Origin: Amphiscolops sp. MND2022
Lineage: Eukaryota
Direction: 5' to 3'
Assembly: GCA_964187785.1 (NCBI GenBank)
Contig: OZ076409.1
Location: 49,974,001-50,038,000, forward strand
DNA length: 64,000 nt
Under the pieces are notes generated by a model that saw nothing but the letters and a program-made list of their open reading frames with translations, was not told the DNA's origin and did not search any database. The position numbers and the translations under genes are program-made. Below are positions 628-50,872 of this stretch, piece by piece. How positions within the stretch are numbered: the stretch's first letter is position 1; each line of letters opens with the position of its first letter.

Positions 628-1103
628 AACAAGACGGGAACGTCTCAAGTCGGCGCTAAATCGAAGGCTCAAAAAGCGCAAAACATTTTTTTGGAAAAAA
701 CTTGAATTTTTCGAAAAAAAATCTTTCGGAAAATGTCGCACAGTGCCAAAAAATGTAAAAGGGGGACCCTTTTTGATTTATAAACACGCATTCTGTAGCA
801 AAAAAAAACAAAAAACTCAAAGGGGGGACCCTTTGGGGACATTAAAAAAATTTCGAAAAAAAGTCTCACAGCGCCGAAAAAAAATCGAAAGGAGGGGGGG
901 AAACTTTAGTCCCGTCCGGGCTCGTATGTAACGTTTAAAAAGTAAATGAATGCGCTCCCCGTTTGCCTTTAGCGGTCCAGTAGTTTAGTACTTATTTAGT
1001 AGTTGAACGTTAATTTTAACGTTCGTCGCTTCGAGTCTGTCTTAAAAAAAACGAGTGACTGTAATAGTCGGGCTTTTTTCTTAAGAAAAACGCCGACCAA
1101 AAA
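628..1103 (-). mobile_element. Helentron-associated non-autonomous element (HINE/DINE-1-like)
   Basis: Subterminal inverted repeat AGTCGGCGC, partial inverted repeat at one end, short terminal stem-loop at the other, T-rich ends. Related copies lie at 26460, 28862, 42264 and 55464. Confidence 0.7.
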
Positions 1104-3120: not shown

Positions 3121-4770
3121 GAACGGAGAGATTTATCCCAACATTCTCCTTAACCCTAAATTAATCCTAAAGCCATTGTGGAACAATCGATTACATCAGT
3201 CAGTCACTGAAGCAACGTCAAAAAGATGAACAATTTGAAGAGAGTGTACGAGCTTATTGACATATCGTCAAAAAGTGAAGAGGAGAGAACTATGGAAAGA
3301 GCTTCCACCTCCCTCCCTAGAAACACTCAACCCAACTTCAGAGTAATACTAGAAATCTCAAATTCTTCAGCCGTTGCGGACGAGGAAGAATACTTTGACA
3401 TCTCTGCAGACACTTTGGAGGCAAATTGTAAGAGAAGGCGACTATACTCAACTTTCGAATCTCTGCAATCTGGAGAGCTCCCCAGCATTTCCTCAAAATC
3501 AGCATATAACGAAATGAGAGAAAGCCCTGAGAGCCTTTCGAGCAAACGGAAGATTATAAAGAAGGGTTCATAGTCGAAAGTCACAAAATACCGAGCCCCC
3601 AGTCGATAATGAGTTGCATGATCACCGAGTATCTGGAGCAGGTCCATAGGTGAGTAGACAATGTTTCTCTTTTTAAATTCCTCCGGGCATCCCCAAGAAA
3701 ATATTTTCCGACCAGTGAGCCCCCTGAATGACCTTGAAGAAGAACTTAGCAAGAACCTAAACCAAGAAAACTAGCAACGTAGCAGATATCAGAATGAAAT
3801 TGGTCCCATTGACGTTCAGGCCTCGTCAAACCGGGAGAGCTGTTCTACCCAGAAGAGTGGTCCTGTCACAACCCGCGCCCGGTTTGGGATGTTCATGCAG
3901 ACGTATTGCAATCGGAAGAGGACACGGCTGTAGTCTACGTTTCCCAAAATGGTAACCAATTTATTGACTTTAAATCACTTAAAATCTTTTCCAAAATAAA
4001 CTGTGACAGAAAATGTAAAATGTACGCCAACCTTGCGCAAGCTCCAAATGAAAATGAGCTCAAATGATTTCACGCATTTCCAGTAAGACGCTTTTGTCAC
4101 GTCAGAATAGAAGCCTTCACCACCTGAAAACTAAATAAAAATGCGTCTTAGGATAAAATATCATAGACTAATCTAAATGAAAATATATAACCAAAACTCT
4201 CTCCAAGAAGGAACACCAATCAGTCCTAAAACAGAATTCACATTGAGATAGCACACCGAAAAGATCGCGCCTTCTCTAAGAAAAGGCAGGCTAATTACAT
4301 TTTGAACAGCAATTAATGTGAATGAGGACGGTATCTCGTCGCTAAGTAAACAATTATGGCAATACATGCAAATATTACTATACCTGCGACGTCATCAAAG
4401 CTCTGCTAACTAGTCGTCTAACTAAAAGTATTCCAAATTACTCGTCGGTGTGACGTCACTAACTTGGTAGCTAGTCAAAATTTCATTCCAAATCCTGGTC
4501 AACACTGCGTCACAAATCTATCAAAACAGTTGTTTTAGTCCATCCAAAATAATGAAATTAATGCTTCATTGTTGTTGTAATAATTTTGGTGCAAGGAAAT
4601 CGCTTAAATTACGCTTAACTAAGTTAGTGTAATTGTAAAAGGGCATTTAAGATACATCTACTTGTCAGATTACGGATTTCGTCAATTCAGATGATTGCGT
4701 TGAAGCCTAATTTGGATGAAAACGTTTCCATATTATTTAAAAAGAAAGTCACATTTTCTTCTAAAAGACG

Positions 4771-6063
4771 TGTTACGAGTATGTGTTTGTAACGTTCGCT
4801 GTAAACTTCTATTACTATGTTGTACCAATTGATGATGACTCGACGTTTTTAAAAGAACCAGATGCCGTGGATTAAGGAAAATGATACCTTGGTAATGAAA
4901 CTATATTTTTCCTATGATGTGTTTGTATCTCATTTTGCTACGACTATTTGTAAGCCCATCCCAACTGTCCATTGAGAAATTTATTCAAGTATTTTATCAT
5001 CTGAAGTTGATAATATTGTTTGCTGTTTCTTTTTCGTTGATTTAGCCTAAGGTCGTTGACATGTCGGACCATAATTACATTAGTTGTGCTAATTTAGACA
5101 TAAAGATTATGTATGATAATCTATCTAATTAACAGCTTCCATCAAATTACTAGTCTATCTTATTCTCCTAGCATCTCCGAATATTTCAAGCAAAACAGAA
5201 TTAGTCATAATTTTCTTCAAGTCAAAATTCAAGTTGAAGCGCTAGTTGTTCACGTCAGCGTCATCTTCGCGTCGATTTTCCTACGAACCAAAGCAGTAAA
5301 ACAGGGAAACTTCCGGTTTGACAGACTGGAGTAATAACTACTTCCTGCTTGGGAGGAAACAAAAGGAATGAAATGATATGAACATGGTTGATGACTAATG
5401 TTAGATTGGAGTTACCGAGTCTTGAAATTTGGCGAGGTGTTGACGCAATTTCGGGATCGTGATGATTTTTTCATCGTAAAAACAGGAAATGACTAATTGT
5501 CCGAGGAAACGTAGGGCTTTAGTTGTGATCAAATGATGCTAGGAGGGTATCAATACGATGATTTTTCATAAAGGAGGGACTCAATTTCTCAATTCTCAGC
5601 TTAATTCTCAACTTTGTTGGAAAACACAGTTCGAAAATGAAATTTAAAATTCAATCTCTTCATTCATAATGTCGACTAGAAGAAGCCAAAAGAGGAAGAA
5701 TAACCAACAGGAGAACATCGAAAGTGTAAGTGAAGGTCTAGTTTCACCAATAGTAGTAGAAGGCTTTGTTTCCCGGAGCAGGACGTAACCATTGTGGGTC
5801 CTTCAAGACCAAAATCTCATAGGATCGAAAATAGCCTCCTTGAGAGTTTGAGGGCTTCTTTAAAAGAGGAAATAACCTCAGAAATTAGGAGTCTTCTCAT
5901 AGAGTCCCAGAAGGAAATGTTGAAACTGTTAAAACCTAAAACAGGAGAGAACATGAGAGAAAACACTGAAGAAGAAACGGAAAATGAAACTAGGAGCTTC
6001 TATACCCCTACGAAATCAGAGTTAATTCAAACCAAAACAATGACCCTAACGCGAGTCGTAACT
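4771..6063 (+). repeat. LTR (3' LTR of E0) containing the gag N-terminal ORF (ATG 5669, MSTRRSQKRK..LLIESQKEMLKL)
   Basis: Inverted termini TGTTACGAGT...AGTCGTAAC. The ORF is homologous to the LTR ORFs at 10307, 21559 and 39907. Confidence 0.75.
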
Positions 6064-8758: not shown

Positions 8759-9831
8759 TGGCACAGCCCGCTTCCGGCTGTTATCGCTTTGGATGCAGTT
8801 AGAATTAAATTTGCTTTGATGAACTAATTAGAATGATTTTTGTGACGTCATCGAGACAGCTATGCTAGCAATACGTTGTTATTTGGAATGCCTTTTGTGA
8901 CGTCAATAGAACGAAAAATGGAATGATTTTTGAGCTTGCCGTAATACCTCCGTAAACTACCGCTCAGCTATGCCTAATCATAATACGTACGGAGCAGTTA
9001 CGGATCAAATACAGCTAAGCCTAATCTCAATACGTACGGAGCAGTTACGGAGCAAGTTGTGAAATTGTAGTTGTGAAACGATATTTTAGGCTAAATTTGA
9101 AAGGAAGTTTCCAAAGAAACGATGCACTAAGAGAGTTTCAGAAAAGGATTTCATATGAAAAAAACTGCACTGTAAATAAAAATTGTGAAATTGTGCTGGT
9201 ATTTTTATTGTTTTGAGATCATTTTGATATATTAGCCTTAGAATTACGTTCACTTTACGCAACCCACAGATTTTCCATAGAGCAAAGTTGATGATTTCTT
9301 CCCTTAACCATGACCCACAGTTTAACAGACAATTCATAATAACATCCGTTGAGGAAAATATCAAACTGATTTTTACTTTACCGCCGGTTTGACGGTCAAA
9401 CAGGAAATGAAATTGCCTGAACAAAAACGATTTCAACAAATGTTACAAAAAGTTGACGCAACCTAGGAATTTCGATACCTGATTTTGTGACGTGGGACTA
9501 AAATAATATGAATCAACTAGGTGTTGGTGTGAACAAACCCATTTTTATGATAGCTATGACTTTTTAGGTGAGAAACAAAGAATGCTAGGAGAGTATAAAG
9601 GTGTTGGTTTTGTAAATTAAATCATAGGTATTAGTAATCTTTGTTACACTGTTACATTGCTAAAACGATTCTTCTTGAAAAGTTCGAATCTCTTTGAAAC
9701 CTATTGTTTCTTCTCAAAAATGACAGCTCGAAGTCATAAAAGCCTGAAAATACATTCACTGCACCTACATCAACCCCTATGAAAACCCTAAACGACTACT
9801 CAATATAATACTCCGGTAGATAGTCGTAACA
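8759..9831 (+). mobile_element. Solo LTR, same broad family as the E1 LTRs, internally deleted
   Basis: TG..CA ends (TGGCACAGCCCGCTTCCGG..AGTCGTAACA), 5-bp TSD GGCTC at 8754-8758 and 9832-9836, TACGTACGGA repeats, and a residual MTARSHK start at 9720. Confidence 0.9.
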
Positions 9832-9939
9832 GGCTCCAGACTGACCATGCGCTGGGCCACATATGGTCCAGAGCATGGTCAACCTGGAACCATAAGTCGT
9901 TATGGTCCAGAGTATGAACAACCTGTTTTTGTATGGGAG

Positions 9940-12057
9940 TATTACGGTCATTCACCGGTGTAATTTTTAGAATAACCGTATTAGTTCTAGGTTTTACAGG
10001 CGTAGATGTTATAGTTGGCGGAGCGTTTTAGTTTTCAGAGTCAGATTCCTCAGTTAAATTTAATGTAGCATGCTGCTTAGCAACAGCTGTTACTAAATTT
10101 AGCATTTCATTTTGGTTTTCAGCTAGAATTTTGGTGAGATCAGAGAGGATTTTTTTTCTGAGAGTAGATTTCATCTCCTCTAGGTTTTCAGTTTGAACCT
10201 TTGGTGATTTGATCGTTCCTGCTACGGATGTTCCCATTTAGGGGCGTCTCTTGGCTAATTGAGATCAGGTGTTCTACTGCTATCCGTTTCCGGCTTCTGG
10301 TAGTCATTTTTGAAAGAGAAGAAAATTATTCTTTGGGATTTTTAGAAATCTTCAAAGAAAAGATTTCTTATCAACGTAGAGCTTGCGCAACAGCAAATGA
10401 TTCAATAAATCTTCACAAGCGTTCTAAGTATATATACTTTCTCAGAATCATTTGTTCCTTGCCCAAAATTTCCAAGGAATTTCAAAAATCAGTTTTGTTC
10501 ACGAAAAATGCTTAATCATCCTTTTTATTTCAGCTTTTCGATCATTGGTTCAGGTTTTACAATTCCTAGTCACGACTCCCTTACGGAGCATCTGTTGAAA
10601 ACATTTTTGTTCAGCAATCCTACTTCCGGTTTAGTTAGAGAAATGACGGCAAAGTAAAATCTAGTTGAAACTCTACCGAAAGAATCACGCTTGCGTGAAC
10701 AATGATTCAGCGCATTATCAGCAAGAATCATCTTTCGCGTCAAAAGAATGACAAGCATAAAAGTGGTTTCGATAACCTTACGGAAAAATTCCTACTTGAA
10801 ATGCCAAGAAATTTTAGAGCTATTTCATGGAAGGAACAAATGATGCTGGTAAATGGCGTATTGAAGCCGCATTTATATGTTTCATAGCGACAACAAATGA
10901 CAAACATCAATGATAACTACCATTTTTCCTTGCAACAACAATTAACAAGGATCAATGATAACTAACAAATTAGGTATTCAACAAACTAGTCAATCAGCCA
11001 AATTAAGCGTTTCACCAATGAATTTCATGAAAACAACACCTTTTGGGTCTTCAACAATAATTTTCCCAATGTGAGTACTTTCTTGTCTTAACCTACAGCA
11101 CGACTATTCAAATCATTCCTAACAATACAGGAATTAAGCGGAACTTAAAGAGCCTAATATTGTTACTTATTGATTAGTCCGTAATGTTTCCGTACGTAAT
11201 AAGATTGAGTATAGTAGTCTAGATTAGCTTTCGATTTTCACAAACTATTCCGTAGTTGTTCCGTACGTATTAAGATTGACAACGGCTAGCTTAACAATCT
11301 TCATTCTTACAACTTGCTCTTCGTACAAATTAAGGTTGGTTACAATTGAAAGAGTGCAAGCGGCGATGTAGCGGAGCGCGTAGGCGTTCATTCTCTTTCT
11401 CTTATTTGATTGGCCTGGCTATGGTAACATCCTAATAAGAATGAGCTAGCGTCCTATTGGATTGAGCCCAAATAGTTCAACCGAGACTCAATGCTATTGG
11501 TTCGTACAGTTAGAAACTAGATTTACAGTCCCAGTCCAACTCGCGCCCATTACGTTGTTGATAAATATTTAGATTACTAGCTTGCAATCTTAATAGATTT
11601 TGACAGCTACTTCAACCACTATTGTGCCATCTCTATTATGTTTTGGTATTTCTGTTTTAGATTGGACAATGTTATCCGTGGGAATCGCGGATTCAAATTT
11701 TGATCCCCGTTATTCAGGGTGTAAAAAAATTAATTTTGTTTCACTTTTGTTTCCTTTCAATTATTTAGGTCTGTATGGAAAACGGTGTGGACTGAGACCG
11801 GAACTGCAATATTCTAAACATGAAATAACACACCGGAAGTTTTTACCCTGTCAGAAATCACTTTTGAAACTTCACGTAATGCTTCCGTTTTTTGAAAAGT
11901 TTCTTTTGTGTTTTAACGCTTAGTCGTGCTACAGATCAAGTAAAGGTAAGGGATTGTTTATACTCAGTAGATTTTTGATTTGTCATGGCCAACTGCACTT
12001 CGAATTTGGGGATGCCATCATGGCAAGTAAAACACCGAGCGGGAGCGGGTCGTGATG
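9940..12057 (-). repeat. 3' LTR of E1
   Basis: Direct repeat of 21182-23308. It contains the MTTRSRKR.. ORF from 10307 to the LTR end. Confidence 0.9.
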
Positions 12058-13066
12058 GGGCAACTCTCATTTTTGGTGCATGATTGTCAGGGCAATGATG
12101 TATCTCCTTCGTGACTAGTACTGGTTTTTTCCTCAGTCTGGGCAGCTTCTGTGAAGTATAATGTCGTCCTCGGTTACATACCGGGTGGGTCTCTCTACCA
12201 TCTTCCAGGCTGATACCACATACTTCCTCTAACTCAGCCACCGTTGGTTCCGTTAGGTCGTCGAGTTTTTCCACTTATTTCGCGGTTCCTCTTGCGTGGC
12301 ATTCACGTTGGTGATGTCTTTCAGTATAGGGGCCGGCGACAACCGGGGCAACTCGCGGGACGAGTCTGGTTCCTCATAGTATTTGTCTGAATCGTCTTCT
12401 GGCTGTTCTTCTACTAGGAAAGCTTCTCCTTGATCGGCCTTTTCCGGGGTAAAGTTCGCTTACCACCTTTTTGGCGATCCGGTGGACTCAAAAGTAGAGA
12501 TGGTTTCCCGTGACAATTCGAGGTCTGCTTCACTGCCTCTCCATACCTCCACGGAGGAATCATTTATATCGAGTCTTCCCATCATGTTCACAGGTAGCGT
12601 TTTGATTGGCGTACAGTGCCTGTTATTTTCCTCATCTTATGAGATGTCTATGACAAGAACATAATTGTGCATTTAAATTTTTGTAGCAAAGATTTGTTGA
12701 TCTGGTTTTTTTTAGTTTAACTGCTTTTCTTGTTTGCTGTACGGCAAATGAAGAGGTCAATTTTCTTTTACTGGCAATTTTACTGCATTTTTATTGTCGG
12801 TTTTCCCGTCTATGTTCCGGTCCGTCCTAAGTTCGGGAAACGTTTTGCTTCCGTCTGCGCTGCAATTGGCTGAACCGAGAAAAAAAATTTTCTGAATTTT
12901 ACCTTTTGTTATGACGTCATCATATTTTCCGAAGGAGTAGCGTTCATGTGACGTCATAAGTTTAGGGGTGATTTTACTTCTTTTCAGTGCTTCCGATCAC
13001 ATTTATCCATTTTTGGTTTTGGAAGCGATAGGCTTCTGTCAACGCCGTAGTAGGCTTGGGTAAAAA

Positions 13067-14280
13067 ATGAGAGATGAATTCTTTCGTTGTTACAACTCTC
13101 TTAAGGTTTTCTGATGAAGGTCACATGTTTGGTGTTTCGCTGTTTTGGGGTGATCTCGTTGGCATTACCCCTGTGTGGCGCCGCTTGTTTAAAGTATATG
13201 GAAGTCAAATTGATTGCCGAGTTTCCTTTTGCCCCTATTGATGATTTTCTGTCTTATGATGATTATGAAATCGGGAAGAAGTTAATTTGTGGGAAGACAA
13301 CCGAGATGCAGTCATTTCGTGTACAAAGCCGCGAGTTCATAGACAGACTGATCTTTGTATTAGTGGAGCGAATCAGTGCAACTGCGAGCTTTTCCCGGTG
13401 TTTGTCAAGTTTCTGTCCCGAGATCATGTTGGACGGTAATAATAATGCCGTGTTCAATCTCTTCTCTGAATTGAGCAGAGTGTTACTTACTTGTGGCGTA
13501 CTAACGTTGGATGAAACGAAGGCTGCTATGGAGGAATTTACCAGCTACTTTGTTTAGAAGCAGAGGCTGCACGAAGCTTCTGGTCAACTGGCTGGTGAGA
13601 TTGGTGATGTTGTTGATTATATACTGCGGGATTTCAGTTTCGAAGCCCGACATAATCTGCGTCTGGTAGTTGGTGGCACTCATAAGGCTTTGCTGACCGT
13701 GACGCTTGGTTCAAGTGGATGTGACCTTGATCATAGAGTGGTACAGGATTGTCTTCATTTGGTGCAGTCGTCCGTGCTATCTCCTGTTTACAGTCATTCG
13801 TCTTTGTTTACTGTACAGACCGTAGAGAGAGTTCGTGGAGCTATCGGCAATGCTGGTGTTTTCTACGTTTCTACTTCTCAGCCGGTTTTGTTTTGTGGAA
13901 AGAGTTGTTTTACGGTCATGATCCAGGCTCTTTTGTAGCTAAACAGAAGGAAATCTACCGCCAGTTATTAAACCAACGACGCAGAGATTGTGAAATCAAT
14001 TATATTGTGCTCGATAAGTCTTATCGTGAAGCGCGGTTTCGATAGGGTTCTGGTTAATCTGAAGTTGGGAGTGCTACGATCTCTGTTGTTAAAGCTAAGA
14101 AGGAGGTAGCAACAAAAACTGTCTTCGTGGGGTCCTCGTCGAGGATTGCTTCCGGGGCTGCTACGTCAAGGAAAAATGCTGGCAAAGGAGGTGTAGCCGA
14201 CTCCAAGAAAGACGGCGGTGCTAGTCCGTCAAAAAGGTCAAAGAAGAATGAAAGAGGAGACGAGGAAAATACGATGTACG
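13067..14280 (+). pseudogene. Antisense accessory gene, copy B (C-terminal part)
   Basis: MRDEFFRCYNSLK..FLMKVT and SFRVQSREFIDRLIFVLVERISATASFSRCLSSFCPEIML align to QRDAAFFTYGQFCQFL.KLC and KFAAKARGYFIFLLETMLRNVHLTADIVHGIACFDPHVLL of copy C. It has a basic S/K-rich tail and is convergent with the end of pol. Confidence 0.7.
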
Positions 14281-14519: not shown

Positions 14520-17500
14520 CTTCCACAGTGACAGCGTCAAGCATGCGGAAATATGGGTGTGCATTAGGCCTCGGATTAGGGCGTAGATTGTATCTCCCCG
14601 TTTTTCGCGGATTGTAACTAACTACAATAGGTGGTAATTCCGGCGCTTTAGGGAGTTTCTATAGGTGGTGGGGTCGTTATGTAGGGATTGTCACTAACGT
14701 CCAGGTTATATGACGTAATATCTCCTTGTGATGATCTGTCCGCGGTAGAACTTTCACTTGCGGTTGTTATAACCGCTTCATTTTGCGTTGTCTGTGCTTC
14801 ATCAATTGGCACTTCTGTGATCGCAGCTTCTTCTTTTCCTTGTTCCGATGAGTTTCCGAACAGGACTTCTCTGAATTCGGTTTCCCAAGCTTGCGAGTAC
14901 CAATCATCATGGGTTGTTTTAACCTCAGGATCTGGAAGTTGACAATCCGTCTTGACTGTTATGTCAGGTATTCGTTGATTGGGCGCATACAGCCTTAGGC
15001 GAATTCTTTGGAGGGTTTGGATGTATCGTGTTCCTGTTTTTTGTAGGACGTAGTTTTTGTTGGAGAGGATTTTGACTACTTGCAGGGACCGGCCCAAATG
15101 CAATCCTTGAATGCAAGTTTCATTGACTAGTTATCAGCCTTCGGGTTCAAGACATAGCAGTAGTCATTGACTTTCAATGGCGTTGCTGTCGCGTGTTTAT
15201 CATAGTATCGCCTTTATTTCAAGTATGATTGCATGAGGTAATCTTTGGCCGCCTGGTGGGTTTCGGCTATCTGTTTCTGTAATTTATCCGTAAGTTCTGC
15301 GTTTTTCTTTCTTCTATTCTGGCTTAATTCCCAGTTTGATATCGAAGATGTTGTACTGAGTTCGTCCGTAAAACACTGTTGTCGGTTCGCAGCCTAGCCA
15401 CTCTTGATAGCTTGTGTTGTAATTCATGACTGCAATTTGTGCGTATTTATGCCACATTGAACGTTGTTTTCCCGTCAAAATGTTTAAGGACGTTTTTAGT
15501 GATGCGTGTGTCCGTTCGAGTATGCCTTTTGTTTGGGCGCGTTTCGTCAATGCCTGACTGATGCGTATGTCAAGGGTTTGAGCTATTTGATTTACAACGT
15601 TCGAACGCAATTGTGAGCCTTTATCCATGAGAATCATTGTTGATAGGTAACAATGGCGTGTCAATTCGTCGACTATGCAACGGCCGACTGTTCTGGCTGG
15701 CTGTCATGTTTTGGGTAGGGTATGCGAAGAGATATCGGGAGAAAACATTCATCATCGTTATGATAACATGCTTGTACCCGTTTGATCAAAGTAGTTTCGG
15801 TAGTATATCGACTTCTAAACAGTCTTCGGGTCCAAATGTGAGTTCCGTGTTGCTAAGCATCTTCGGGCGTATTTGTCGTATGTCTGTTCGTTTGTTTGCA
15901 ATGCAGTCAAAGCAACTGATGACCCAGGCCCTGATTTTTTGTGCTAGTACCGGATAGTAGTATTTCTCTCTGCATTCTTGGATCATCTTGGTGATTCCTG
16001 GATGTTTATTCATTTTCCCGTGTAATGTGGATAGTAATTGCGATACTTTTTGTTTTGGTATCAGGATTTGGTGATATGTGACTGTGCCGTCCTCCCGGTA
16101 ATATTTTCGCATGAGGACTCAATCCTTGACTATTATTCTTTTTTCATGGCGTAGGAGATTATGTCCTCTGGGTTCAGTTTTTAAGAGATGTTTTTCATAT
16201 TCTTCGTGTAGTAAGCGCAATATTTGTGTCTTCAGGATCGGGTCGGAATTTTGTTTGTTACGTATTCGTCCATTTTCTTTGTTTGCTCCAAATGCATAAA
16301 CTGTTGCATTAAGTGGTAAGTTTCTGTTTTTTTTATTTCTGTAGACAGATATTGCTGTTCTTTTTCGTCTATCGCTCGTTGTTTGCTAAGTGTTTTCCTT
16401 GCAAAAACTCCTTGCTCTGTTTCTTCTTCCTCGTCTGGTAGAAAGAAGAGCTGTTCTTCGTCGGCTACGTCTGTTGACTGTAGATTGACCCCTATGGGGG
16501 CCGTTAGGATGTCGTCGTGCAGTTTGAGTTGGACTCTTTCTTTGGGGGTTAGTTCTAGTCTGGACAGGAAATCAGCTGCAGTGTTTTGTGATCCTGCTAC
16601 GTGCATGATGCGGAAGTTATATTGTTATACAGGGTCACAAGCATTCCTTAAAGGTGGTTTTTGTTTGGAAAAGTCTCTTCACCGATCCATTGTCCGTTAG
16701 TACTAGTGTTGGTAGCGTTGTTTCCCGTAGGATGCGACTGTACTCTAGGAACGCATTTAGATAGAAACTTTTTTTATCGTCGTTGTCTTCTATCATTAGT
16801 GCGTATCTGGATGCTCTGAAGCTGGCACCCGTCAGAAGCACGTATTGTTTTCCAGCAACGGGTTGTCAGAGTGCTAGTCCGCATGCTTTCGCGAGGCTTG
16901 CGTTGAAGTCATTAACGAGTTCTTCTGAGGTGTTGATTTTTTCATCACCTTTTAGTAATTCGTACATTCCAATAATCTTTTTTGACAACCCTGGTTTGTA
17001 GTTTTGGTAGTAGTTGACGAATCCGATTTTTATCTGGACTTGTTTCTTTGATTTAGGATATCTGATCTTGGACAAGATGTTGGCGATTTGTGGTCTTGCG
17101 GGGCTACTCCGTTGAGGGTGACGGTTGTGCCAAGGAATTCAACTTGGGTAATCCCAAAGTGGCATTTTTGATCGTCAGCTTTAGGCCCGTTTTACGGTGC
17201 ATTTGAAAACTGCTCGGATGTTCTTGAAGAGTTCTTCCGTTGTGTTGGCGGCGATCCCAATATCATCCACGTATTGAGCACACTGGTCTGCTTTGATGAC
17301 TGTGTCGAGGTACTCCCGCATGAAGCTTGAGACTGCTGACAAGGCCATATAAGTCCTTAATCCAGTTTACGGTAAGCAAAAGTCCTACTGGCAAAATGAG
17401 ACGCAAGGAGTTCTACTAACCTTTGATCTGCCATTTGGAGACAGTGGTAGGCTTGGGAGCAGTCAAGTTTACAGAAGATCTTTTTCCCCGCTAGGTGTTG

Positions 17501-20500
17501 CGCAGCGTCTGAGAGGGTGCTGATTGGGTTATTGTTTTTTATGTAGTCATCTGAGATGAGTGCGTTGATCTTCCTCAAATCCACGAGTAGGCGCAATTTT
17601 TCGTTGAGTTTACGTTGAGCAAACATGGGGCTGGCGTACCTCGGGAGTGGGAGAGTTGTGATGATCCCATATCTCTGCATTAGGGCCAGTTCCACTGTGA
17701 GGTCATCTTTGAGGTTTTAGGGTACGGAGAAGCTCTGTGTGTATACTGGCTTGTCGTTTTTAGGAGTTAGGCATATTTTGGATTGGGTATTCATTCCGAT
17801 GTCAAGACGATGGCGGGCGAGAATGTCATTGATTTCAACAATGATGGATTCTAAGTTTTCCTGATCCTCTCCCGTTACAAGTGAGTCGTTCCATTTGAAC
17901 ATTGAGAGGAATTGTGTTCTAGAGCGTTCGTCTTGTTTAGGGTCTAGTTGTTCTAGTTTTTGTAGTTCCCGTAATTCCTTGAGTATTCGTTGTTGGATGG
18001 GGGTGTGTTCCAACTCAGCTCCTGGGTTCTCGGGTGTTGTGAACCAAAATTTTACTTCTGCGTTTTCGGGGAATTAACGCATTAATATACGCAACAACGT
18101 TGTCATGTTCTGTGAGGAGATTGAGTACTGCTATGTCTACTGGCCGTATTGATTTCGTTTTTTCGGGCTTCAAGATTTGCAACTCTGCCAGTTTGGTGTG
18201 TGAGTTGACGGTGTATGGGAAATCCATTGTGTTGGCTATTTCACGCGTTTGTCACGGGCTGTTGTTATTGCTGGGACTACGATGAGTTTTGCTGTCTCAT
18301 CGAAATGTGGTAGGGGTTGGACGGTCCCAGTTATTGCGTGGTCATTACTCACAGTTACAGATGCGTGGATGATTCGTGTAGCCTGTGCTGGGATGATGTG
18401 TTTCCCTCGGGCTTGATGGGGATTGGTCTCGGGTTGCACTTCTGCATCTCATCTGTTAAAGCCAAGGTGAGTTGTATTTTAGGGAAGTCAATAGTACGTT
18501 GTACAGTGTCAAGGATTGCGGAGTGTTTCCGGAGTAACGCCAGACCAAATATCGCGTAGGACGTTTTGGTGATGATGATGAAGGTTTCTTCGAACGTCTC
18601 CGATCTTGAATTTCATCCTGTATGTGGCAAGGGCGTTTTCGAGCTCGGTGTTGGCGAAGTGTATTTTGATAGGGGGGTGGTGGTGCTTTTTCAAGTATGG
18701 ATGCTTTTGCTTCTTTTTGTATTTTCTGCGCGTCTTTTTCGCTGATGACATTTATATAGGCTCCTGAGTCGACTAGTGCGTCTATTTTGACGTTTTTGAA
18801 TTCGATGGGGATGACGAGCATCCTTTTTTGTTCCTTAAAGGCAATAGCTGACATTAACGGGATGTAGTCGTCATCTTTGTCATGTTGTTTGAATTCCTTA
18901 ATGACCTTGAGGTCGTGAGGCAGTGGTTGTGGGCATTCTGTTGCTTCCTCGTTCGTTGTTATTGGGCGTGGTTTGTGGCTGCGAGGGGGAAGGAATGATA
19001 ATCTCCCTTTGTTGCTTCGCTTGTTTTGACCAGATCCTTTTGTGTTCGAAGCATATAATGTTCTCTGCGTCTATTGGCGTGAACGTTACTGCTGCAGGCT
19101 CTGATGGTATCGTTTCTGACTTCTTCAGGATCGTTGACAGTGGTGGAGGAAATTCTGTCGTAGTTTCTGTTTTTTCCTGTGGGTTTGAAATTTGTATTTT
19201 AAATGTTCGTGCTTTGGTATCATATATTGTAGGTTCGTCCCACGGATCACAGCGGTAATCCGTGTCATATATGTAGATTCTGTCGGTTTGTGATTCTGGA
19301 TCGTTTGAGTGTGGCATCTTTTTCCGGTGATTACGTTATCCATTGGGGAAATGGCTTTGGGTCGTTCGGATGTCTGGCGTTGTGACGGAGGATCATACCT
19401 ACGTTCCAGCGTCTCGTCGTTGCCAATCTTGGGTTGCATCCCCATTGCATTCTGTCATGAAATCTTCCTTATAGCGGTTTGGGGGGTCCTCGATTGTGTA
19501 CGCCCTCGCATCTTCTTTTCCCCGAAGCGTATCCGCGGCGATCTTAGTTTTTTGGCTGAACTTTGATAGTGGGGATCGGTTGTTCGCTTATTTGGCTTGT
19601 GGGCATTGCGAACTCATGTCGTCGTCTTCTGGGGTCATTTGCCGCGTTTGCTCCGTTCCAGCAATTTTCTGTTTTGTGGGTTTTTCCGCATGTGTCGCAT
19701 TTTGGTTTTGAAGGGCAGTTGAGCTGGGAACTCCATTTGCGCTTTAATTTCGTAGTACCTGTCTTTCCTCAGTTTGCGGCATTGCCCTTTATAGTGTCCA
19801 TATTTGCCACCGTAAAAGCAGTTTCCTCGCTGGTTTTGTTCTTTCTTTCTGGTGGTGCGACGTCAACTGAGTTTAGCGGGACGAGAGCGGTTGCGTCAGG
19901 GGCACCCACGCCATTGAGGTGCATTTCTCTTTCGAGATGTAGGACGAAGACAATGTTTGGCTTGTCTTCAAGGTAAGGATTTAAAGATCTTTTCGACATT
20001 GTCCGGCATATTTCATATATGGCTTTATCTATGAACTTTTGCGCCTCTGGATTGAACGCCTCCTTTGCTGTTTTTTGTAATACATCTAGTAATTCATGGA
20101 GTTTATTTTTGGTTGGGTCAAAATGTAAGGAGTCCCATTCACAACGAGCTTTTGCGGACAATTGGGAGTCTCCGAAGCGACGTTTGAATGCCGTGATTAC
20201 TTCTTCGAGGTTGTCTTTTTTCGCATCATCAAGAATACAATACGCCTGGAACGCGTTGCCACGAAGTAGGGAGTGGAAGTAGTTGGTTTTCTGTATCTCG
20301 GTTAGGTGTGGATACTTTTTATATATTGTTTCGGAATAAGTCCTCAAAAAGTTTGATTTTTTCGGACTTACCATCAAACACTGCTAGTGATGCTGGGAGT
20401 GCTTTTGGCATTGGGGGATATTGGACGGTTGGTAGACGTCAGGTTGTGGTGCGAGCAGTCGTCTCGAAGTCGAGTCACGTTCGTTGGGCGGCAGACTTTG

Positions 20501-20565
20501 CCGGCGGTTTGGGCGTGTTTTCTTTTTCGCCAGATTCGTGGAGTCAATAAAGACTCCTGTCACCA
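14520..20565 (-). pseudogene. gag-pol of E1 (frameshifted)
   Basis: gag FDGKSE..YFHSLLRG; protease ALVDSGA (about 18770); RT KLRLLVDLRKINAL, FCKLDCSQAYH and AQYVDDIG (about 17270); RNase H NTAADFLSR; integrase HGKMNKHPG..CFDC and GILERTHASLK; C-terminal RYNLRPNP. Confidence 0.95.
20553..20565 (-). promoter_or_regulatory. Primer-binding site TGGTGACAGGAGT (tRNA-Leu-like)
   Basis: Directly follows an LTR-terminal ..TAACA stub (20566-20582). It resembles the complement of animal tRNA-Leu 3' ends (TGGTGTCAGGAGT). Confidence 0.75.
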
Positions 20566-20594
20566 TGTTAAGGTCATTCACCTGTAAAATTTTT

Positions 20595-21181
20595 ACATCC
20601 GTTGATGAAAATTTTAAACTGACTTTCACTTTACCGCTGGTTTGACGGTCAAACAGGAAATGAAATTGCCTGAACAAGTGTTACAAAAAGTTGAGGCAAC
20701 CTAGGAATTTCGTTACCTGATTTTGTGACGCGGGACTAAAATAATATGAAGCAACTAGGTGTTGGTGTAAACAAACCCATTTTTCATTTTTACGATAGCT
20801 AGGACTTTTTAGGTGAGAAACAAAGAATGCTAGGAAAGTATAAATCTGTTGGTTTTGTAAATTAAATCATAGGTATTAGTAATCTTTGTTACACTGTTAC
20901 ATTGCTAAAACGAATCTTCTTGAAAAATTCAAATCTCTTTGAAACATTTTTTTTCTCAAAAATGACAGCTCGAAGTCATAAAAGCCTGAAAATACATTCA
21001 CTGCACCTACATCAACCCCTATAAAAACTTAAAACGACTACTCAATATAATACTCCGGTAGGTAGTCGTAACAGGCTCCAGGCTGATCATGCGCTGGGCC
21101 ACATATGGTCCAGAGTATGGTCAACCTGGAACCATAAGTACTTATGGTCCAGAGTATGAACAACCTGTTTTTGTATGGGAG
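20595..21181 (+). repeat. Duplicated copy of the flank 9342-9939 (solo-LTR 3' part, MITE piece and TSD) located inside E1
   Basis: Directly alignable by eye from ACATCCGTTGA to TTGTATGGGAG. Confidence 0.9.
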
Positions 21182-23308
21182 TGTAACGGTCATTCACCGG
21201 TGTAGTTTTTAGATTAACTGTATTAGTTCTAGGTTTAACAGGTGTAGATGTTATAGTTGGCGGAGCGTTTTAGTTTTCAGAGTCAGATTCCTCAGGGCAA
21301 ATTGATGTAGCATGCTTCTTAGCAACAAGTGTTATCAATTTTAGCATTTCCTTTTGGTTTTCAGCTAGAATTTTTGGTGCGATCAGAAGAGATTTCTTTT
21401 CTGAGAGTAGATTTTATTTCCTCTAAGCTTCCTGTTCGAACCTTTGGTGATTTGCTCGTTCTTGCTACGTGGTTCTCATTTTGGATGTTCCCACATAGGG
21501 GAGTCTTTTGCTCAGTTGAGATCAGTTGTTCTACTGCTTTTCTGGCTTCTGGTAGTCATTTTTGAAAGAGAAGAAAAGTATTCTTTGGGAATTGTAGAAT
21601 TTTTGTCAACGTAAAGTTTGCGCAACAGCGAATGATTAATTTAATCTTCAGATGCGTTCTAAGTATAAATACTTTCTCAGCATCATTTGTTCTTCACCTA
21701 AAAATTCCCAGGAATTTTAATAGTTTTGTTCACGAAAAATGTCAAATCATCCTTTTTATTTCAGCCCTTCGATCATTAGTTCAAGTTTTAAATTTCCTAG
21801 TTACGACTCCCTCGCGGAGCATCTGTTGAAAACATTTTTGTTCAGCAATCCTACTTCCGGTTTAGTTGAAGAAATGGCGGCGAAGTAAAAGTCTAGTTGA
21901 AATTCTACCAAAGAAAGCACGCTTGCGTGAACAATGATTCAGCGCATAAACAGCAAAAATCATCTTTCGCGTCAAAAGAATGACGAGCATAAAAGTGGTT
22001 TTGATAACCTTACGGAAAAGTTCTGACTTGAATTGCCAAGAAATTTTTGATCTAATTCATGGAAGGAACAAACGATGCTGGAAAATGGCGTATCAAAGCT
22101 GCATTTAAATGTTTCATAGCAACAACAATTGACAAAAATCGAGGATAACTACCAAATTTCATAGCAACAACAATCAACAAGCATCAATGATGACTACCGA
22201 AGTGGGTATTCAACAAACTAATCAATCAGCCAAATTAGGCGTTTAACCAATAATTTTCATGAAAACAACACCTTTTGGGTATTCAACAAAAATGTTCTCA
22301 ATGTGAATACTTTCTTGTCTTAACCTACAGCACGACTATTCAAATCAACTTTCAACGCGGGAATTAAGCGGAACTTAAAGAGCCTCATATTGTTAATCAT
22401 TGATGACTCCGTAATGGTTCCGTACGTATTAAGATTGAGTATAGTAGTGTAGATTAGCTTTTGATTTTCACAAATGATTCCTTAGTTGTTCCGTACGTGT
22501 TAAGATTGACTATGGCTAGCTTAACAATCTTCATTCTTACAATTTGCTCCGTAGCTGCTCCGTAAATATTGAGTTTGGTTATAATTGAACGAGTGCAAGC
22601 GAAGATGTAGCGGAGCGCGTAGGCGTTCATTCTTGTTCTCTTATTTAATTGGTGTTGCTATGTTAACATTCTAATAAGACTGAGCTAGCGTCCTATTGAG
22701 TTGAGCTCAAATAGTTCAGCCGAGAAGTAACGCTATTGGTTCGTAAAATTATAAACTAGATTTTCAGTCCCAGTCCAACTCGCGCCCATTACGTTGTTGA
22801 TATATATTTAGATTCCTAGCTTGTGATCTTAATAGATTTTGACAGCTACTTCAACCACTATTGTGCCATCTCTATTGTTTTTTGTATTTCTCTTTTAGAT
22901 TGGACAATGTTATCCGTTGGGGTCGCGGATTCAAATATTGATCTTTGTTTTGTTATTCAGGGTGTAAAAAGAATTATTTCTTTTTACCTTTTGTTTCCTT
23001 TTAATTATTTAGGTCAGTATGGAAAACGGTGTGGACTGAGACCGGAAATGAAATATTCTAAACATGAAAGAATAGACCAGAAGTTTTTATCCTGTCAGAA
23101 ATCACTTTCACACTTCGTAATTTACGTAACTCTTCCGTTTATTGAAAAGTTTCTTTTGTGTTTTTACGGTTAGTCGTGCTACAGATCAAGTGATGGTAAG
23201 GTAATGTTTATACTTAGTAATTTTTTGATTTGCCATGGCCCACTGCACTTCTGAATTTGGGGATGCCATCATGGCAAATAAAACACCGACCGGGAGCGGG
23301 TCGTGACA
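21182..23308 (-). repeat. 5'-side LTR of E1
   Basis: TGTCACGACC..GACCGTTACA, flanked on both sides by GGGAG. The ATG of the MTTRSQK ORF is at 21559. Confidence 0.9.
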
Positions 23309-23749
23309 GGGAGGGAAACCCGGGCTCTTCTTCATTGTTTTGGCGCTCGTTTTCAGCAGCCTCTCATTTCAAAATTCTAAATGAAGTTCAGTTGCAGCTT
23401 CTGAATTCCGAACATTTTCTTCCACCAGTTTCTTACAGTTTCTTCATCTACTGTCCAGCAGCCCTGAGTAACAGATCTTTTCTTTCGTTCGTATGGTATT
23501 TGCTCATACGTAAACCGATGATCGGTCTTCGTTCTACTAGCGCACGTCAGAAAACCTTTGGATTTTCAGTTCGTTAGTTTAACTTTTACCGTTTTGCTAC
23601 AGCTGTCTTTCCGGAAGCTGTCTCACTTCTAAAACAACAAACCATGGTGAACCCGAAGATCACCACACTGGAAACCAAAAAATTTCAACAATTTCCTGAA
23701 ATCTCGAAATTTACTTACCGGCTCAAATCGCTGTGTATGTTTTTGACTC

Positions 23750-28861: not shown

Positions 28862-29253
28862 AACAAGCCGGGAACGGCCCAAGTCGGCGCCATATCCAAG
28901 GCTCAAAAATAGCAAAAAGACTTCAAATTTCCAAGTATTGGTGAATTGGGAACACTTTTACGAAAAAAAAAGTTTTTCGAAAAAAGTCTCACAATGCCGA
29001 AAAAAACTGAAAGGGAGGAAATAGTTACTCGTCCGGTATTGTTTGTTACGCGGGAAACCTTTTTGGTTCAGTTCCTTGGGCCACCAAGTACATTTTGGCG
29101 TCTTCTGTAAATTTTGTAGAACTTTTGGTAGAACTATTTTGGTCAGTTCTTTGGTCTTAAAAAAAACACTGGCTATTTTGGTCTTGAAAAAAACACTGAC
29201 GAAAAGCAATGACTATAGTCGACTCTTTTCTTAAGAAAAGCGCCGACTAAAAA
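28862..29253 (-). mobile_element. HINE-like element
   Basis: AACAAGCCGGGAACGGCCCAAGTCGGCGC ... AGTCGGACTCTTTTCTTAAGAAAAGCGCCGACTAAAA. Confidence 0.75.
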
Positions 29254-29400: not shown

Positions 29401-32400
29401 TGTTACAAGAAAGCAGAAGAACAAGGATAAAAGGTCTAGAGACATTACGATACATATGCCGCATCGAACTAGCAAGATCTTGCTAGTTCGATTAACAGCC
29501 AATAAAAACGCGTCATTATTTCAAAAACGCGTTACGTGTTTTGCTCGTTACACGGTGTGATTTGGAATGTACACTACGCACTGTACACTGTACACTAGTG
29601 AACTTTACACTATTCACTGTTTGACTAAAATACGGTTCGCTCTCGTTTTACGGAAAATACACTTTACACTTGATGATAAACTCCTTTGTTGCGGCATATG
29701 TATCGTATTGGAAGCATACATGATCTCAGATCTAGAAAATCTGGATGCAATGATAGGGAGTAGCCATTACGAAAGAAGGATTAGCGAATTTGATATTTCA
29801 GTCAGATGGTCTGAAAGTGCTAACGTAAAAGGCCATTAACGAGGCTTCAAATGGGCAACTTTTGCCTCAAATCCAAACTTTTTCAGGTCCATAATTGAAC
29901 AGCCGGCCCAAAGTGGAATCTTCCTGGTGAGGGACCGGAACGAAAATCTGAAAATGCCTTCAACCGCAATGTCAGAAGCAGTTCTAGAGATGAGTCCCTC
30001 AGAAACTTGAATCGTGATGAAATTGAGGACTCTACACATCACATGGTGGCAGGATACAAGGAAGCTCCAAATTCGGTTTCCGAGTTTCTCACAGGACGCT
30101 TACTTTTGCGAACCGCACTGAATTAAATCAATTCTGATTATACCGATTCACTTGACACGACACTAGCCACGCCAAAACAAACCGCTCCAATGACCGCACA
30201 TGACCCAAAACACATACTAGCCAATATAATATACTGACCAGGAAATCGCCTCGCAACTCAACAACTACTCACTATCCGCGCAGTCAACACTACTACCGTG
30301 AATTTTGACGGAAAGAGTGAAAAAATTGAGTTGTTTGAAGATCTTTTCTACACTATGATTAAAATGCAACAGGAAAAGTCTGAACAAATGAAGCTCAACG
30401 ATTTCCACTTATTTCTTCAAAAAAATGCACTCCAAACCTTTCGTTACATCAACAACATCAATAGCCAAACGCTTGAGGACGAATTAGACATCTGCAGACG
30501 AAATTGCCTCAAACGTGAATCACAAGCGTCTGCCATACACAAAGAATCTTTGATCCCAACACGATAGAATTCTCGATTTCTTCAAGTTAAACCAAGGAGC
30601 CGAAAAGGCATTTGGAGAGAACGCTCAGAGCATGATCGAGAGCCCCATATAAGCAAAACTGCCTACAAAATTCGAAAGATCAGTCAATTTGGAGATACTT
30701 GAGGACGGCCCATACAACGAAATTGTAGCCCACCCATGCAAACCAAAAAATCTACTGTCCAATGGACTATTGACTGACGTCGCCTGCAAAAAAATAATTT
30801 GGTAAAAAACTGTAGAAAATCCGATATGAAAAAAGAAAGGAATGTCCAGAAAAGCAAACTGACTCAGAAGATATTTTACCCTGAGTGTGGAACTTGTGGC
30901 AAGGCAAACCACCCTGGGGAACGATGTTGGAAAGATGCCGCTGCAGATCTGAAGCCGAAACGCACCAGACCCGACGACACAACGGACACAACCCCTGAGT
31001 CCGATGCACCGAAAGCTAATCAAACAACAACATCGACCACCACTCAGTCCACATCAAGCAAAGCCAAGTCAAAAACTAACATCGCCATGACCCCAACACC
31101 ACAATCTAGAATCAGTCAGACAAAACGTCAGATTGGAACCTCGAACCAGAACCTGCTACGAAAAGGAACCACAAATGATGGCCATCATTCTGTTGTCTGG
31201 CAGCAACAGATGGAAATAGCATCACTCATCACATATAGCAACACCCATCTCTTTCAGAAACCAATTCTTATTTTGGACCCAATTTACACCACAAACTTTC
31301 CAATTTCCTTTATTGATGATTACAATCCTCACTATACTGATCCCGACTATGCAGCTAAAGACCACTGATCACTGATACTCCATTGTCCTTGTTCCCATAC
31401 TCAACCCAATTGAAGCCACCAGTACACCAAAGAACTGATTCACAATCAGGACAAATTCCTCATTATACCCTAAAAATTCAGTCACTGGCGTTTTTAAACA
31501 AAATGACCTCTTGCACGAAGAAGTTGACAATACCCTCTGTCAAACATTAGTCAGCCTAAACGACTGGAACATTCATATACCAATCAAAAACGTGAATTTT
31601 CACCCTCACGAACCCAAGAAAGGATCCCATTTTGCCAACTTTTCCGTCATGACGCCGAAACAAATGAAGTACGTAAAACCGGTTGATCCAACGTCAACAT
31701 GGCATCTACTACAGAGCGACCTGGAACAAGCTGCTCACTACGTTAGCAGCCTAATAAAGGCAAACAAAAACATAGAAAAGTCCGAAACTTTTTGGTTTCC
31801 TTCTCCAGAAAACCAAGGAAACCCCGACGAAGACACGCCCACACAACGACGAATTTTACGGAACTGCCAGCCTTACAGGACCTGGAGACCCTCGACTCCA
31901 CAACGGACGTGGAGTTCTTCAAAAATTTCGACGGAAAAAACTCCACGCTCGCACCTGACGCGATTGCACGAATCGAGGAAGTACTAGTGGAATTCCATGA
32001 CATCTTTGTTAGACACAGATTGAACATTGCTTGGAATGTCGATTTCAAAATCAAATATACGCCTAAGGACGATTTCCCAGCTTACAGTAAGCCTTCCAGC
32101 ACCAATTAACCTCGAGGAGAACATATTAGTCGAACTAGCATTACAACACCATTTTGGGATTATTACCACAATGCCATTCTCGAATCTGCCAGCCCAATAT
32201 TAGCGCGAAAAAAAGCCAAATGGAAAACTCCGAATATTAGTCCAAATTAGATTTTTCGAAAAACCAATAACGTAATGTCGGATGATTATATCAACAATAT
32301 TGACCCTGTCAGTACGTTACCAGACGGTGCCCAAATTATGGCTGGCAAAAAACGCTTCTGCACATTGGGTTGTTCGCAGGCGTACCACTGCCTACAGATG

Positions 32401-39640: not shown

Positions 39641-39906
39641 ATTGCTTCAAAGGTATACCCATCGCTTTCTGCAACTGTGTTTTCTTCTCATGAACTGCAA
39701 TCGTAGCCCAGAGCTGCAGTTCCTGATCTGCGATGGATTTTTCGGGATAGGCGCTTGTCCAATGGGATACCTTTGGTCACTTTTATCCCAAGTGTTTAAA
39801 AGTTGGTCAATCAATTGTTTTGTTGCTTTGTTTAATATTGTTGAAACGAAAACGCTTTTCTTTGAAAAATTCACTCCTTCAGAAAAAATCCTCATTCTCA
39901 CTTAGA

Positions 39907-40282
39907 ATGACCACTAGAAGCGAAAAGAGAAAAGCAGCTGTTGGACTATTTCCAGCAAGACTTGAAACTCTTTTAGCTGACAATAGCCAAGCCGAAGACC
40001 TCAAACCCGGACGTAGGAAAAATCCAAGAACTCATTCCGAAAATCTGGACGACATCAAGTTGTCGCTTAGAAAAGGGATCATGTCCAATTTTACTAAAAT
40101 ATTAGCTGAAAACCGAAACGAAATGCTGAAATTAATAGCTACTACCATCAAAAACCCGACTGGTTCTCAAGCCCTAGAAAACACTGACTCTGAACCTGAG
40201 AGTCCTTTTCCTACAAATACATCAACTCCAATCAGACCTAAAACAACTACCCGAAAAACAACACCGGTAAATAGTCGTAACA
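39907..40282 (+). pseudogene. gag N-terminal ORF inside the 3' LTR of E2b (125 open codons)
   Basis: MTTRSEKRKA..KILAENRNEMLKLI..STPIRPKTTTRKTTPVNSRN runs to the LTR terminus. Confidence 0.8.
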
Positions 40283-40546
40283 CCTTTTATAACTGTTAAG
40301 TTGAGGTTTGAACTTGAAGGTTTAAAGCAATTGCCAGAATTAGCCCTTTTCATTAAACGGAAATGTGAGTGTCTGATGAGTAATTATTTGTGAAAGTTGA
40401 TTAAATAGCTAAATGAACTCAGATTTGAGAACGATTTTAAAATTGTCACACAACAATTTTCTGCCTGCTTTTACAAAAAAACGTACTAAATTTCTGCTAG
40501 AAGGTGAAGCATTTGTAATTATATAGAAATCTTTCATCCTTGATTT

Positions 40547-50419: not shown

Positions 50420-50872
50420 TATGATCTGGCAGTTTGTTCAAAACTGGTACTAAACTGAAAAATCTAAAAATTTTGTGTGATATTGGTGTGTTTGTATGAA
50501 TCATTTTGAGTTAAAATACGAAAAGTAGTGACTAATATTGTGTTTGTTCAGTCATCCACTTGAATTTAATTCAAGAAGAGATGCCGCGATTCGCGTCAAG
50601 AACAAACTCGTGGAGTCCAGGAAATTTATGATTTCTGCAATCTGATTGGTTCATTTCGCAAAACTTACGTTTTTGTGGAATCCGGGACACCGCTGCATGC
50701 CGACAGTTCGTACAGCTAAGCATTTGTTACTGGAATCCACGACTAAATCCGTGGAATCCGGGACAAATGACGTAATTTGCCAATTTTGCACGGTTAAAGG
50801 TATGGTCGTGGAATCCGAGGTATTGAACGCACTATGTTGCGCTTTGAGCAAATAAGGCTTGCCTGTGCACTC
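50420..50872 (+). mobile_element. Truncated copy of the TA-TSD MITE at 24898-25980
   Basis: Aligns to 25530-25980 and ends TTGCCTGTGCACTC|TA. Confidence 0.85.

What the first reader, a model, noticed from the sequence alone, without database searches (positions are those of the whole stretch)
9940..10307. gag begins about 120 codons inside the LTR and is translated through the LTR end and the PBS
Seen: every LTR of this family ends in an ORF of the form M(T/S)TRS.KRK..(I/L)L.E(N/S)..EML.L..TP..(S/D)RN (starts at 5669, 10307, 21559 and 39907, with a remnant at 9720). At the E1 5' junction the same frame continues VNDLN-MVTGV.. across TAACA|TGGTGACAGGAGT into internal gag. E2a likewise reads ..MVAGYKE.. 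through its PBS. Established: Ty1 GAG starts in the LTR, but only a short way in. Inference: every solo or 3' LTR is a promoter plus an open 120-codon reading frame pointing into host DNA, which could yield truncated Gag peptides or fusion ORFs.
Basis: partly seen in the sequence, partly recalled or inferred. Interest (0 to 1): 0.7.

Follow-up and report, generated by a model that had tools for sequence, protein, structure and literature searches.

The report
Retrotransposon coat protein starts in LTR
A large family of gypsy-type jumping genes carries the first ~126 codons of its coat-protein (Gag) frame inside its terminal repeat, likely translated straight through the priming site as in yeast Ty1, but five of the six repeat copies in this window are broken, so leftover repeats here are mostly decaying fragments rather than ready-made genes.

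Summary
The family layout is real; two claims about this window are not. 10307→9940 runs exactly from an ATG to the 3' end of the 3' LTR of a Ty3/gypsy element (5-bp target duplication). 81 of the 120 best database relatives join this 126-133-residue head in frame to MVTGV-capsid-CCHC Gag. In 77 other database ORFs the head runs into unrelated tails, 76 starting with an A-codon residue, as an LTR ending AAC-A predicts. Between subfamilies dN/dS is about 0.2; between E1's own LTRs about 0.8. But E1's 5' junction is not continuous: a younger ~590-bp copy of the 3' flank separates head from PBS, and only 1 of 6 heads here (39907) is open. Precedent exists: Ty1 (~13 codons) and Candida Tca5 (first ATG ~100 codons inside the LTR). 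Transcription start, translation and any solo-LTR product are untested. This scan reported the same layout twice before on other pieces of this genome. Verdict: new variant of a known layout; interest 0.4.

The parts
9940..12058 (-). E1 3' LTR, ~2.12 kb (5' end known to within 1-2 bases), preceded by a purine-rich tract
9940..10307 (-). Gag head in the 3' LTR: ATG to LTR end; broken (a frame change in the first third, a stop near 10030)
9935..9939 (-). target-site duplication CTCCC, 3' side
23309..23313 (-). target-site duplication CTCCC, 5' side
21182..23308 (-). E1 5' LTR, main part; starts TGTCACGAC
21182..21559 (-). Gag head in the 5' LTR; broken (two or more frame changes, same stop as the 3' copy)
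20595..21181 (.). younger copy of the 3' flank (9342-9939) inserted between head and PBS; 5.7% diverged from its source against 11.3% for the LTR upstream
20566..20594 (-). last 29 nt of the original 5' LTR, reading ..VNDLN
20554..20565 (-). primer-binding site TGGTGACAGGAG, read as (M)VTG; likely tRNA-Leu
19547..20566 (-). internal part of E1 gag (DUF1759 capsid region, CCHC region), broken
14651..19546 (-). E1 pol, order PR-RT-RH-IN, many breaks; limits approximate
10430..10436 (-). TATA-like motif 129 nt upstream of the ATG (counterparts 21664-21671 on -, 9594-9599 on +); predicted promoter, untested
39907..40299 (+). only open head in the window: 125 codons to the LTR end GTCGTAACA (40282), then 5 codons of flank and a stop
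3864..6063 (+). 2.2-kb LTR of a sister subfamily (likely a 3' LTR); head 5669-6063 with two frame changes
9720..9831 (+). internally deleted head at the end of an oppositely oriented related LTR; copied at 20962-21073
30043..30055 (+). E2a LTR/PBS-like junction CA|TGGTGGCAGG, a different Gag family (25-26% to P0002/P0173); LTR end unconfirmed

Best explanation
[quoted passage not shown] Shown: LTR limits, frame continuity in database ORFs, PR-RT-RH-IN order, purifying selection on the head between subfamilies. Inferred: transcription starts upstream of the ATG (a TATA-like motif 110-130 nt before it), so the head lies in R/U5; reverse transcription primed at the PBS copies the head first and so places it in both LTRs. 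The residues R-N-M-V-T-G are integrase end and PBS read as codons, and the junction ATG is likely a by-product of an LTR ending in CA meeting a PBS starting TGG. The head is predicted to be a basic N-terminal motif plus one 34-residue amphipathic helix in disordered linkers, likely a matrix-like targeting or assembly module. Selection would act only while a head sits in the 5' LTR of an active copy; heads in 3' and solo LTRs are passengers that decay. E1 itself is an old dead copy whose 5' LTR was likely broken 29 nt before its end and repaired by copying from the 3' LTR on into the flank.
For: TSD fixes the LTR end at 9940. 3 of 3 longer homologues of the 39907 head continue into Gag. Of the 120 best of 2689 relatives of P0002, 81 have start motif plus junction, 12 a partial head plus junction, 5 start at or near the junction, 22 fit neither pattern. 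Of 150 listed of 236 cluster representatives, 86 reach the head end with a tail: 9 tails are Gag, 77 are not, and 76 of those 77 start with a residue that an A-initial codon can give (background 0.42; p 2e-28 as computed on 78 of 79 before two tails were re-classed as Gag). dN/dS 0.18 and 0.23 for 39907 vs the E1 heads (96-97 codons; pN/pS 0.41 [0.31-0.55] and 0.45 [0.33-0.59]), 0.79 between E1's own heads. Plain DNA alignment: mismatches by codon position 33/32/61 (p 0.0003) and 39/38/60 (p 0.007), flat in 3 of 3 upstream controls. Helix 44-77 at pLDDT up to 93; conservation peaks at residues 1-9 (0.94), helix (0.68) and TSTP (0.72) against 0.44-0.55 in the linkers. Junction residue M in 98 of 99 Gags. 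Ty1 uses the same read-through layout (PMC3522557, PMC5454406).
Against: No intact element DNA was available, so continuity rests on ORFs called in unnamed assemblies, which only report open frames. E1 does not show it. dS between subfamilies is near saturation (1.6-2.0), and the codon mapping kept only well-aligned codons, which lowers dN. 39907 vs 5669 shows no codon-position signal (43/38/41), and whole-head DNA identity (63-64%) is within the shuffled range (mean 59.9, max 65.3). The TATA-like block is significant only for E1 vs the 9720 LTR (0 of 100 shuffles); borderline for 9720 vs 5669 (1 of 100), not found for E1 vs 5669 (16 of 100). An AATAAA shared by both E1 LTRs lies upstream of the TATA-like motif (-222/-201), which does not fit a simple U3-R-U5 map. 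Five database ORFs start at or near the junction.
Confidence: 0.85

Rival explanations
1. Gag starts at the junction ATG (MVTGV); the LTR frame is a vestige of an older Gag start and is not translated.
For: M at the junction in 98 of 99 Gags; 5 of 120 ORFs start at or near it; the 343-residue internal part holds capsid and both CCHC motifs.
Against: The head keeps frame and length (126-133) across subfamilies only 32-41% identical in the head and has dN/dS about 0.2. The ATG follows from CA|TGG whatever the protein needs. P0002 is full length with I at this place.
Confidence: 0.07
2. Heads in solo and 3' LTRs are expressed and matter: truncated head peptides interfere with Gag assembly (copy-number control, as Ty1 p22 does from the other end of Gag) or seed new host genes.
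For: 77 database ORFs are head plus unrelated tail; 39907 is still open; the head holds a conserved amphipathic helix; truncated Gag restriction factors exist for Ty1 (PMC4551931, PMC13709905, passages).
Against: 5 of 6 heads in this window are broken; E1's pair diverges at dN/dS 0.79; the open copy lacks the TATA-like block; random read-through in this window's flanks is short (median 13 codons). The Ty1 factors derive from the capsid C-terminal half, not the N-terminus.
Confidence: 0.1
3. The head is a separate LTR-encoded accessory protein (like retroviral U3 genes) and its fusion to Gag is incidental.
For: One of 75 Gags (P0176) has the head of one subfamily on the body of another, so the head can move as a module; it has no Pfam match.
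Against: The frame has no stop of its own before the LTR end, so outside a 5' LTR it ends in random flank; next to a PBS it is in frame with Gag in 93 of the 120 best relatives.
Confidence: 0.04

Closest known systems
Ty1 of Saccharomyces cerevisiae (Ty1/copia)
   Same: gag begins in the 5' LTR (PMC3522557, one figure legend) and is read through the PBS: 53-nt 5' UTR, PBS at nt 95-104 (PMC5454406, passages).
   Different: About 13 codons before the PBS against 126-133 here; copia domain order; initiator-Met primer; 334-bp LTR against 2.1-2.2 kb.
Tca5 of Candida albicans (Ty5-like, Ty1/copia)
   Same: [quoted passage not shown]
   Different: The start used in vivo is stated to be unclear; low copy, few solo LTRs; single gag-pol ORF; copia. 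Here: animal-type Ty3/gypsy, high copy, several subfamilies, selection on the LTR-encoded part measured.
Animal Ty3/gypsy (Metaviridae) LTR retrotransposons
   Same: TGT..ACA termini, 5-bp TSD, PBS abutting the LTR, purine tract, gag with capsid and CCHC, pol PR-RT-RH-IN (PMC3601003 and PMC5911963, passages).
   Different: Gag normally starts behind the PBS (own knowledge). My searches found no animal Ty3/gypsy family described with a long LTR-encoded Gag head.
Ty1 p22/p18 and Drt2 restriction factors
   Same: Precedent for truncated Gag acting on its own element (PMC4551931, PMC13709905, passages).
   Different: [quoted passage not shown]

Membership tests
Ty3/gypsy LTR retrotransposon | two direct LTRs with TG..CA termini | tested here: met
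   9940-12058 and 21182-23308, ~11% diverged; 5' LTR starts TGTCACGAC; termini of the 3' LTR are mutated
Ty3/gypsy LTR retrotransposon | 4-6 bp target-site duplication | tested here: met
   CTCCC on both sides
Ty3/gypsy LTR retrotransposon | PBS complementary to a tRNA 3' end behind the 5' LTR | tested here: inconclusive
   TGG-initial site abuts the LTR; 10 of 12 bases match tRNA-Leu ends listed for other animals in a supplement of PMC13524379 (6 rows seen, all Leu); host tRNAs not available (none in the window)
Ty3/gypsy LTR retrotransposon | pol order PR-RT-RH-IN | tested here: met
   aspartyl protease Pfam hits below cut-off; RT YVDD, RNase H and integrase motifs read in order (motif names from own knowledge); PF00078 on the related RT at 34180-34617
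Ty3/gypsy LTR retrotransposon | Gag with capsid and CCHC nucleocapsid | tested here: met
   PF03564 above cut-off; Atlas neighbours are Retrotrans_gag, Ty3_capsid and zf-CCHC clusters at 0.92-0.93; fold search gave only weak capsid rows, none at E <= 0.001
Ty3/gypsy LTR retrotransposon | placement in a named clade by RT phylogeny | not tested
Ty1/copia (Ty1, Tca5) | integrase before RT | tested here: not met
Ty1-type layout (gag starts in the LTR) | frame open from an ATG in the LTR through LTR end and PBS | tested here: met
   81 of 120 best relatives; not in E1 itself
Ty1-type layout (gag starts in the LTR) | transcript starts upstream of that ATG and is translated from it | not testable with these tools
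   no reads could be laid; only a TATA-like motif upstream
Gag-derived restriction factor (p22-like) | truncated Gag expressed and inhibiting its element | not testable with these tools
   sequence evidence in this window points to decay

The most novel reading that the evidence does not exclude
Because the Gag head sits inside the LTR, every new insertion and every solo LTR plants a promoter-plus-head cassette; young cassettes make head peptides whose conserved helix poisons capsid assembly, giving an animal retrotransposon a built-in, LTR-dosage-sensing copy-number brake and the host a steady supply of ready-started chimeric ORFs.
Probability: 0.1. Interest if true: 0.75.

Novelty: new variant of a known kind. 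Interest (0 to 1): 0.4.

Why it matters
The layout forces one stretch of DNA to be promoter-proximal leader, integrase end, primer site and about a quarter of the capsid precursor at once. It would require a first reverse-transcription product of at least ~380 nt plus leader, and it lets the Gag N-terminus be exchanged with the LTR. For annotation it explains a large class of spurious short genes (head plus random tail) and Gags truncated at the PBS. If solo-LTR heads were expressed it would offer a testable form of dosage control; this window gives no sign of that.

Tried and rejected
No whole genome is held for the window. Related loci: none in viral contigs or metagenome contigs. Sequencing runs: none was listed, no RNA holder listed, so no reads were laid. 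E2a upstream frame: 59 candidates, none at E <= 0.001. Head: no Pfam match, Atlas best 0.75, a lead at most. Gag profile against PDB sequences: 0 matches at E <= 0.1; fold search none at E <= 0.001 on a model of mean pLDDT 50. Three copies of the head helix: no answer, score 0.11 against a mark of 0.32, no evidence either way. No Rfam family and no tRNA in the window. RNA folding of the 39907 head z -2.2, 4 of 100 shuffles as good: not pursued. Rejected: that E1's LTR is a 2.7-kb composite ending at the PBS; the TSD at 9935-9939 and the step in divergence (change point 9937-10058, Fisher p 4e-5) show a later copy of the flank. No LTR start or TSD was found for the 39907 copy. PBS-strand motifs were absent from the supplements of PMC13524379; the reverse strand was found. 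Literature searches gave Ty1 and Tca5 only; passages of PMC11117352, PMC11302176, PMC3095310 and PMC7175516 held nothing on this layout. The host species was not established by any search.

Full report
WHAT IS IN THE WINDOW. The window is AT-rich DNA dense in LTR elements. A 2.76-kb direct repeat (9342-12055 and 20595-23306, 87%) frames a minus-strand element, E1. Its internal part carries gag (PF03564 above cut-off) and pol in the order protease, RT, RNase H, integrase, all with many breaks, so it is Ty3/gypsy-type and dead. The true ends are fixed by a 5-bp duplication: CTCCC precedes the 5' LTR start (23308) and follows base 9940. The finding's coordinates therefore run exactly from an ATG to the 3' end of the 3' LTR.

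The repeat is longer than the LTR. Bases 9342-9939 are flank (a 108-bp spacer and the end of an oppositely oriented related LTR), and they recur at 20595-21181, between the head of the 5' LTR and the PBS. This part differs by 33 of 580 bases (5.7%); from 10101 upstream the LTRs differ by 217 of 1927 (11.3%). Fisher p for flank against LTR is 4e-5 and the change point lies at 9937-10058. The copy is thus younger than the insertion. The simplest reading (inference) is a break 29 nt before the end of the 5' LTR, repaired by copying from the 3' LTR on into the flank; tandem duplication followed by LTR-LTR recombination would give the same map. The stub VNDLN|MVTGV is the real old junction, but the ATG at 21559 no longer reaches it. 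Of six head copies in the window only 39907 is open; 10307 has a frame change and a stop, 21559 at least two frame changes and the same stop, 5669 two frame changes, 9720 and 20962 large deletions. E2a has a PBS-like junction with 48 open codons upstream but belongs to another Gag family and could not be checked.

THE FAMILY LAYOUT IS REAL. All 3 longer homologues of the 39907 head run on through RN-[M/I]VTGV into Gag. P0002, a 470-residue Gag with capsid and two CCHC motifs, has 2689 relatives, of which 120 were listed. Of these 120, 81 have the start motif and the junction, 12 a partial head and the junction, 5 start at or near the junction and 22 fit neither pattern, some of them only because the pattern missed. 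78 of the 81 measured 126-133 residues; two others are 126 by eye and one has an internal deletion. The complementary class is also there. Of 150 listed of 236 cluster representatives, 86 reach the head end and have a tail; 9 tails are Gag (7 by pattern, 2 by BLAST) and 77 are not. 76 of the 77 start with I, M, T, N, K, S or R, the residues an A-initial codon can give, against 0.42 in the rest of the tails and 24 of 74 to 36 of 79 at the next five positions. This is what an LTR ending ..AAC-A predicts. Among the 61 tails of 15 or more residues the only pair alike at E < 0.001 is the two re-classed as Gag. Tail lengths (2-87) exceed random read-through in this window's flanks (median 13), but clustering at 50% identity favours long tails, so this is no sign of selection. 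All these records are unnamed ORF calls, which by construction show open frames only; cluster member counts include fragments.

THE HEAD IS UNDER PROTEIN-LEVEL CONSTRAINT. Between subfamilies (39907 against the two E1 heads, 97 and 96 codons) dN/dS is 0.18 and 0.23; between E1's own heads it is 0.79, with differences 15/16/17 by codon position. That method favours conserved codons and dS is near saturation, so I repeated the test on plain DNA alignments: mismatches 33/32/61 and 39/38/60 by position, flat in 3 of 3 upstream controls, and also flat for the more distant 5669 copy. In an alignment of 40 natural Gags conservation peaks at the basic N-terminus (0.94), a helix at 44-77 (0.68), TSTP (0.72) and the LTR end/PBS codons (0.87, 0.98), with 0.44-0.55 in between. 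AlphaFold gives the helix pLDDT up to 93 and leaves the rest of the head unfolded (mean 50, so no more is read from the model).

HOW IT LIKELY WORKS. A TATA-like motif lies 112-129 nt upstream of the ATG in both E1 LTRs and in register in the 9720 and 5669 LTRs; local similarity of the upstream DNA is significant for E1 against 9720, borderline for 9720 against 5669 and not found for E1 against 5669. It predicts a start upstream of the ATG. An AATAAA upstream of it leaves the R limits open. On this reading the full-length RNA is translated from the first ATG through integrase end and PBS. Reverse transcription from the PBS (likely tRNA-Leu: 10 of 12 bases match Leu ends in the 6 supplement rows seen of PMC13524379) would copy the head first and so deliver it to both LTRs (established mechanism, own knowledge). 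The junction ATG (98 of 99 Gags) follows from CA meeting TGG; I took this reading from e1-8580103 and it fits the sequence. Heads outside an active 5' LTR are passengers, as E1's near-neutral decay shows. The single open copy resembles the other LTRs only to about 81 nt upstream and lacks the TATA-like block. Nothing here shows transcription or translation.

COMPARISON AND NOVELTY. Ty1 gag begins in the 5' LTR (PMC3522557, one figure legend seen), about 13 codons before the PBS (53-nt UTR, PBS at 95-104; PMC5454406, passages). Candida Tca5 has its first ATG 382 bp into a 685-bp LTR, about 100 codons from the end, start in vivo unclear (PMC4139406, section 11 read whole). So depth of this order is in print for a copia element. 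Eight searches of the open-access library returned no animal Ty3/gypsy family with this layout; subscription papers and repeat databases were not searchable and may hold it. LTR terminal motifs and domain order are from PMC3601003 and PMC5911963 (passages); Gag-derived restriction from PMC4551931 and PMC13709905 (passages). The scan has noted this layout twice on other pieces of the same genome (e1-8580103, e1-9174308); these are unchecked notes and add no independent support.

VERDICT. Observation partly confirmed; interpretation supported for the family, overstated for solo LTRs and wrong for E1's own junction. New variant of a known layout, interest 0.4. The boldest reading not excluded, that LTR-borne head peptides brake copy number or seed genes, has probability about 0.1.

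Noticed in passing
window 20595-21295 vs 9342-10053: A younger copy of the end of E1's 3' LTR plus ~600 bp of flank sits inside the 5' LTR, 29 nt before its end; it looks like break repair that copied past the end of homology.
   Followed up: yes
P0176: Head of one subfamily on the body of another, switching at the LTR/PBS border; 1 of 75 Gags, single-member cluster, so a genomic chimera or assembly error is not excluded.
   Followed up: partly
P0249, P0251, P0254, P0257, P0259, P0264: In one subfamily an upstream in-frame ATG extends the called ORF to 175-176 residues before the junction; whether it lies inside the transcript is unknown.
   Followed up: no
window 13105-13554(+), 38116-38775(-), 39292-39687(-), 3330-3770(-): Open frames antisense to the elements between pol and the 3' LTR; probably the spliced antisense accessory gene of earlier notes such as e1-8580077.
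   Followed up: no
window ~19540-19550 (-): E1 gag ends in an A-run heptamer directly before its stop and pol continues in another frame: frameshift-site-like (label from own knowledge).
   Followed up: no
window ~14500 (-): The integrase tail of E1 reads ..GRYNLRPNPR.., like chromatin-anchor motifs recalled from other retroelements.
   Followed up: no
window 61343-64000 (+): An open Gag-like frame of at least 886 codons with PF03732 only at residues 597-669, in strongly C/T-skewed DNA: another family with a very long Gag N-terminus.
   Followed up: no
window 31985-32719 and 33882-34609: Two RT regions 66% identical in tandem: E2 is two nested or chimeric elements.
   Followed up: partly
window 628-946, 28861-29253, 42443-42756, 55464-55960; 24531-24893 vs 58249-58610; 25530-25985 vs 50420-50877: Several dispersed short repeat families, some with inverted arms (MITE-like).
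   Followed up: no
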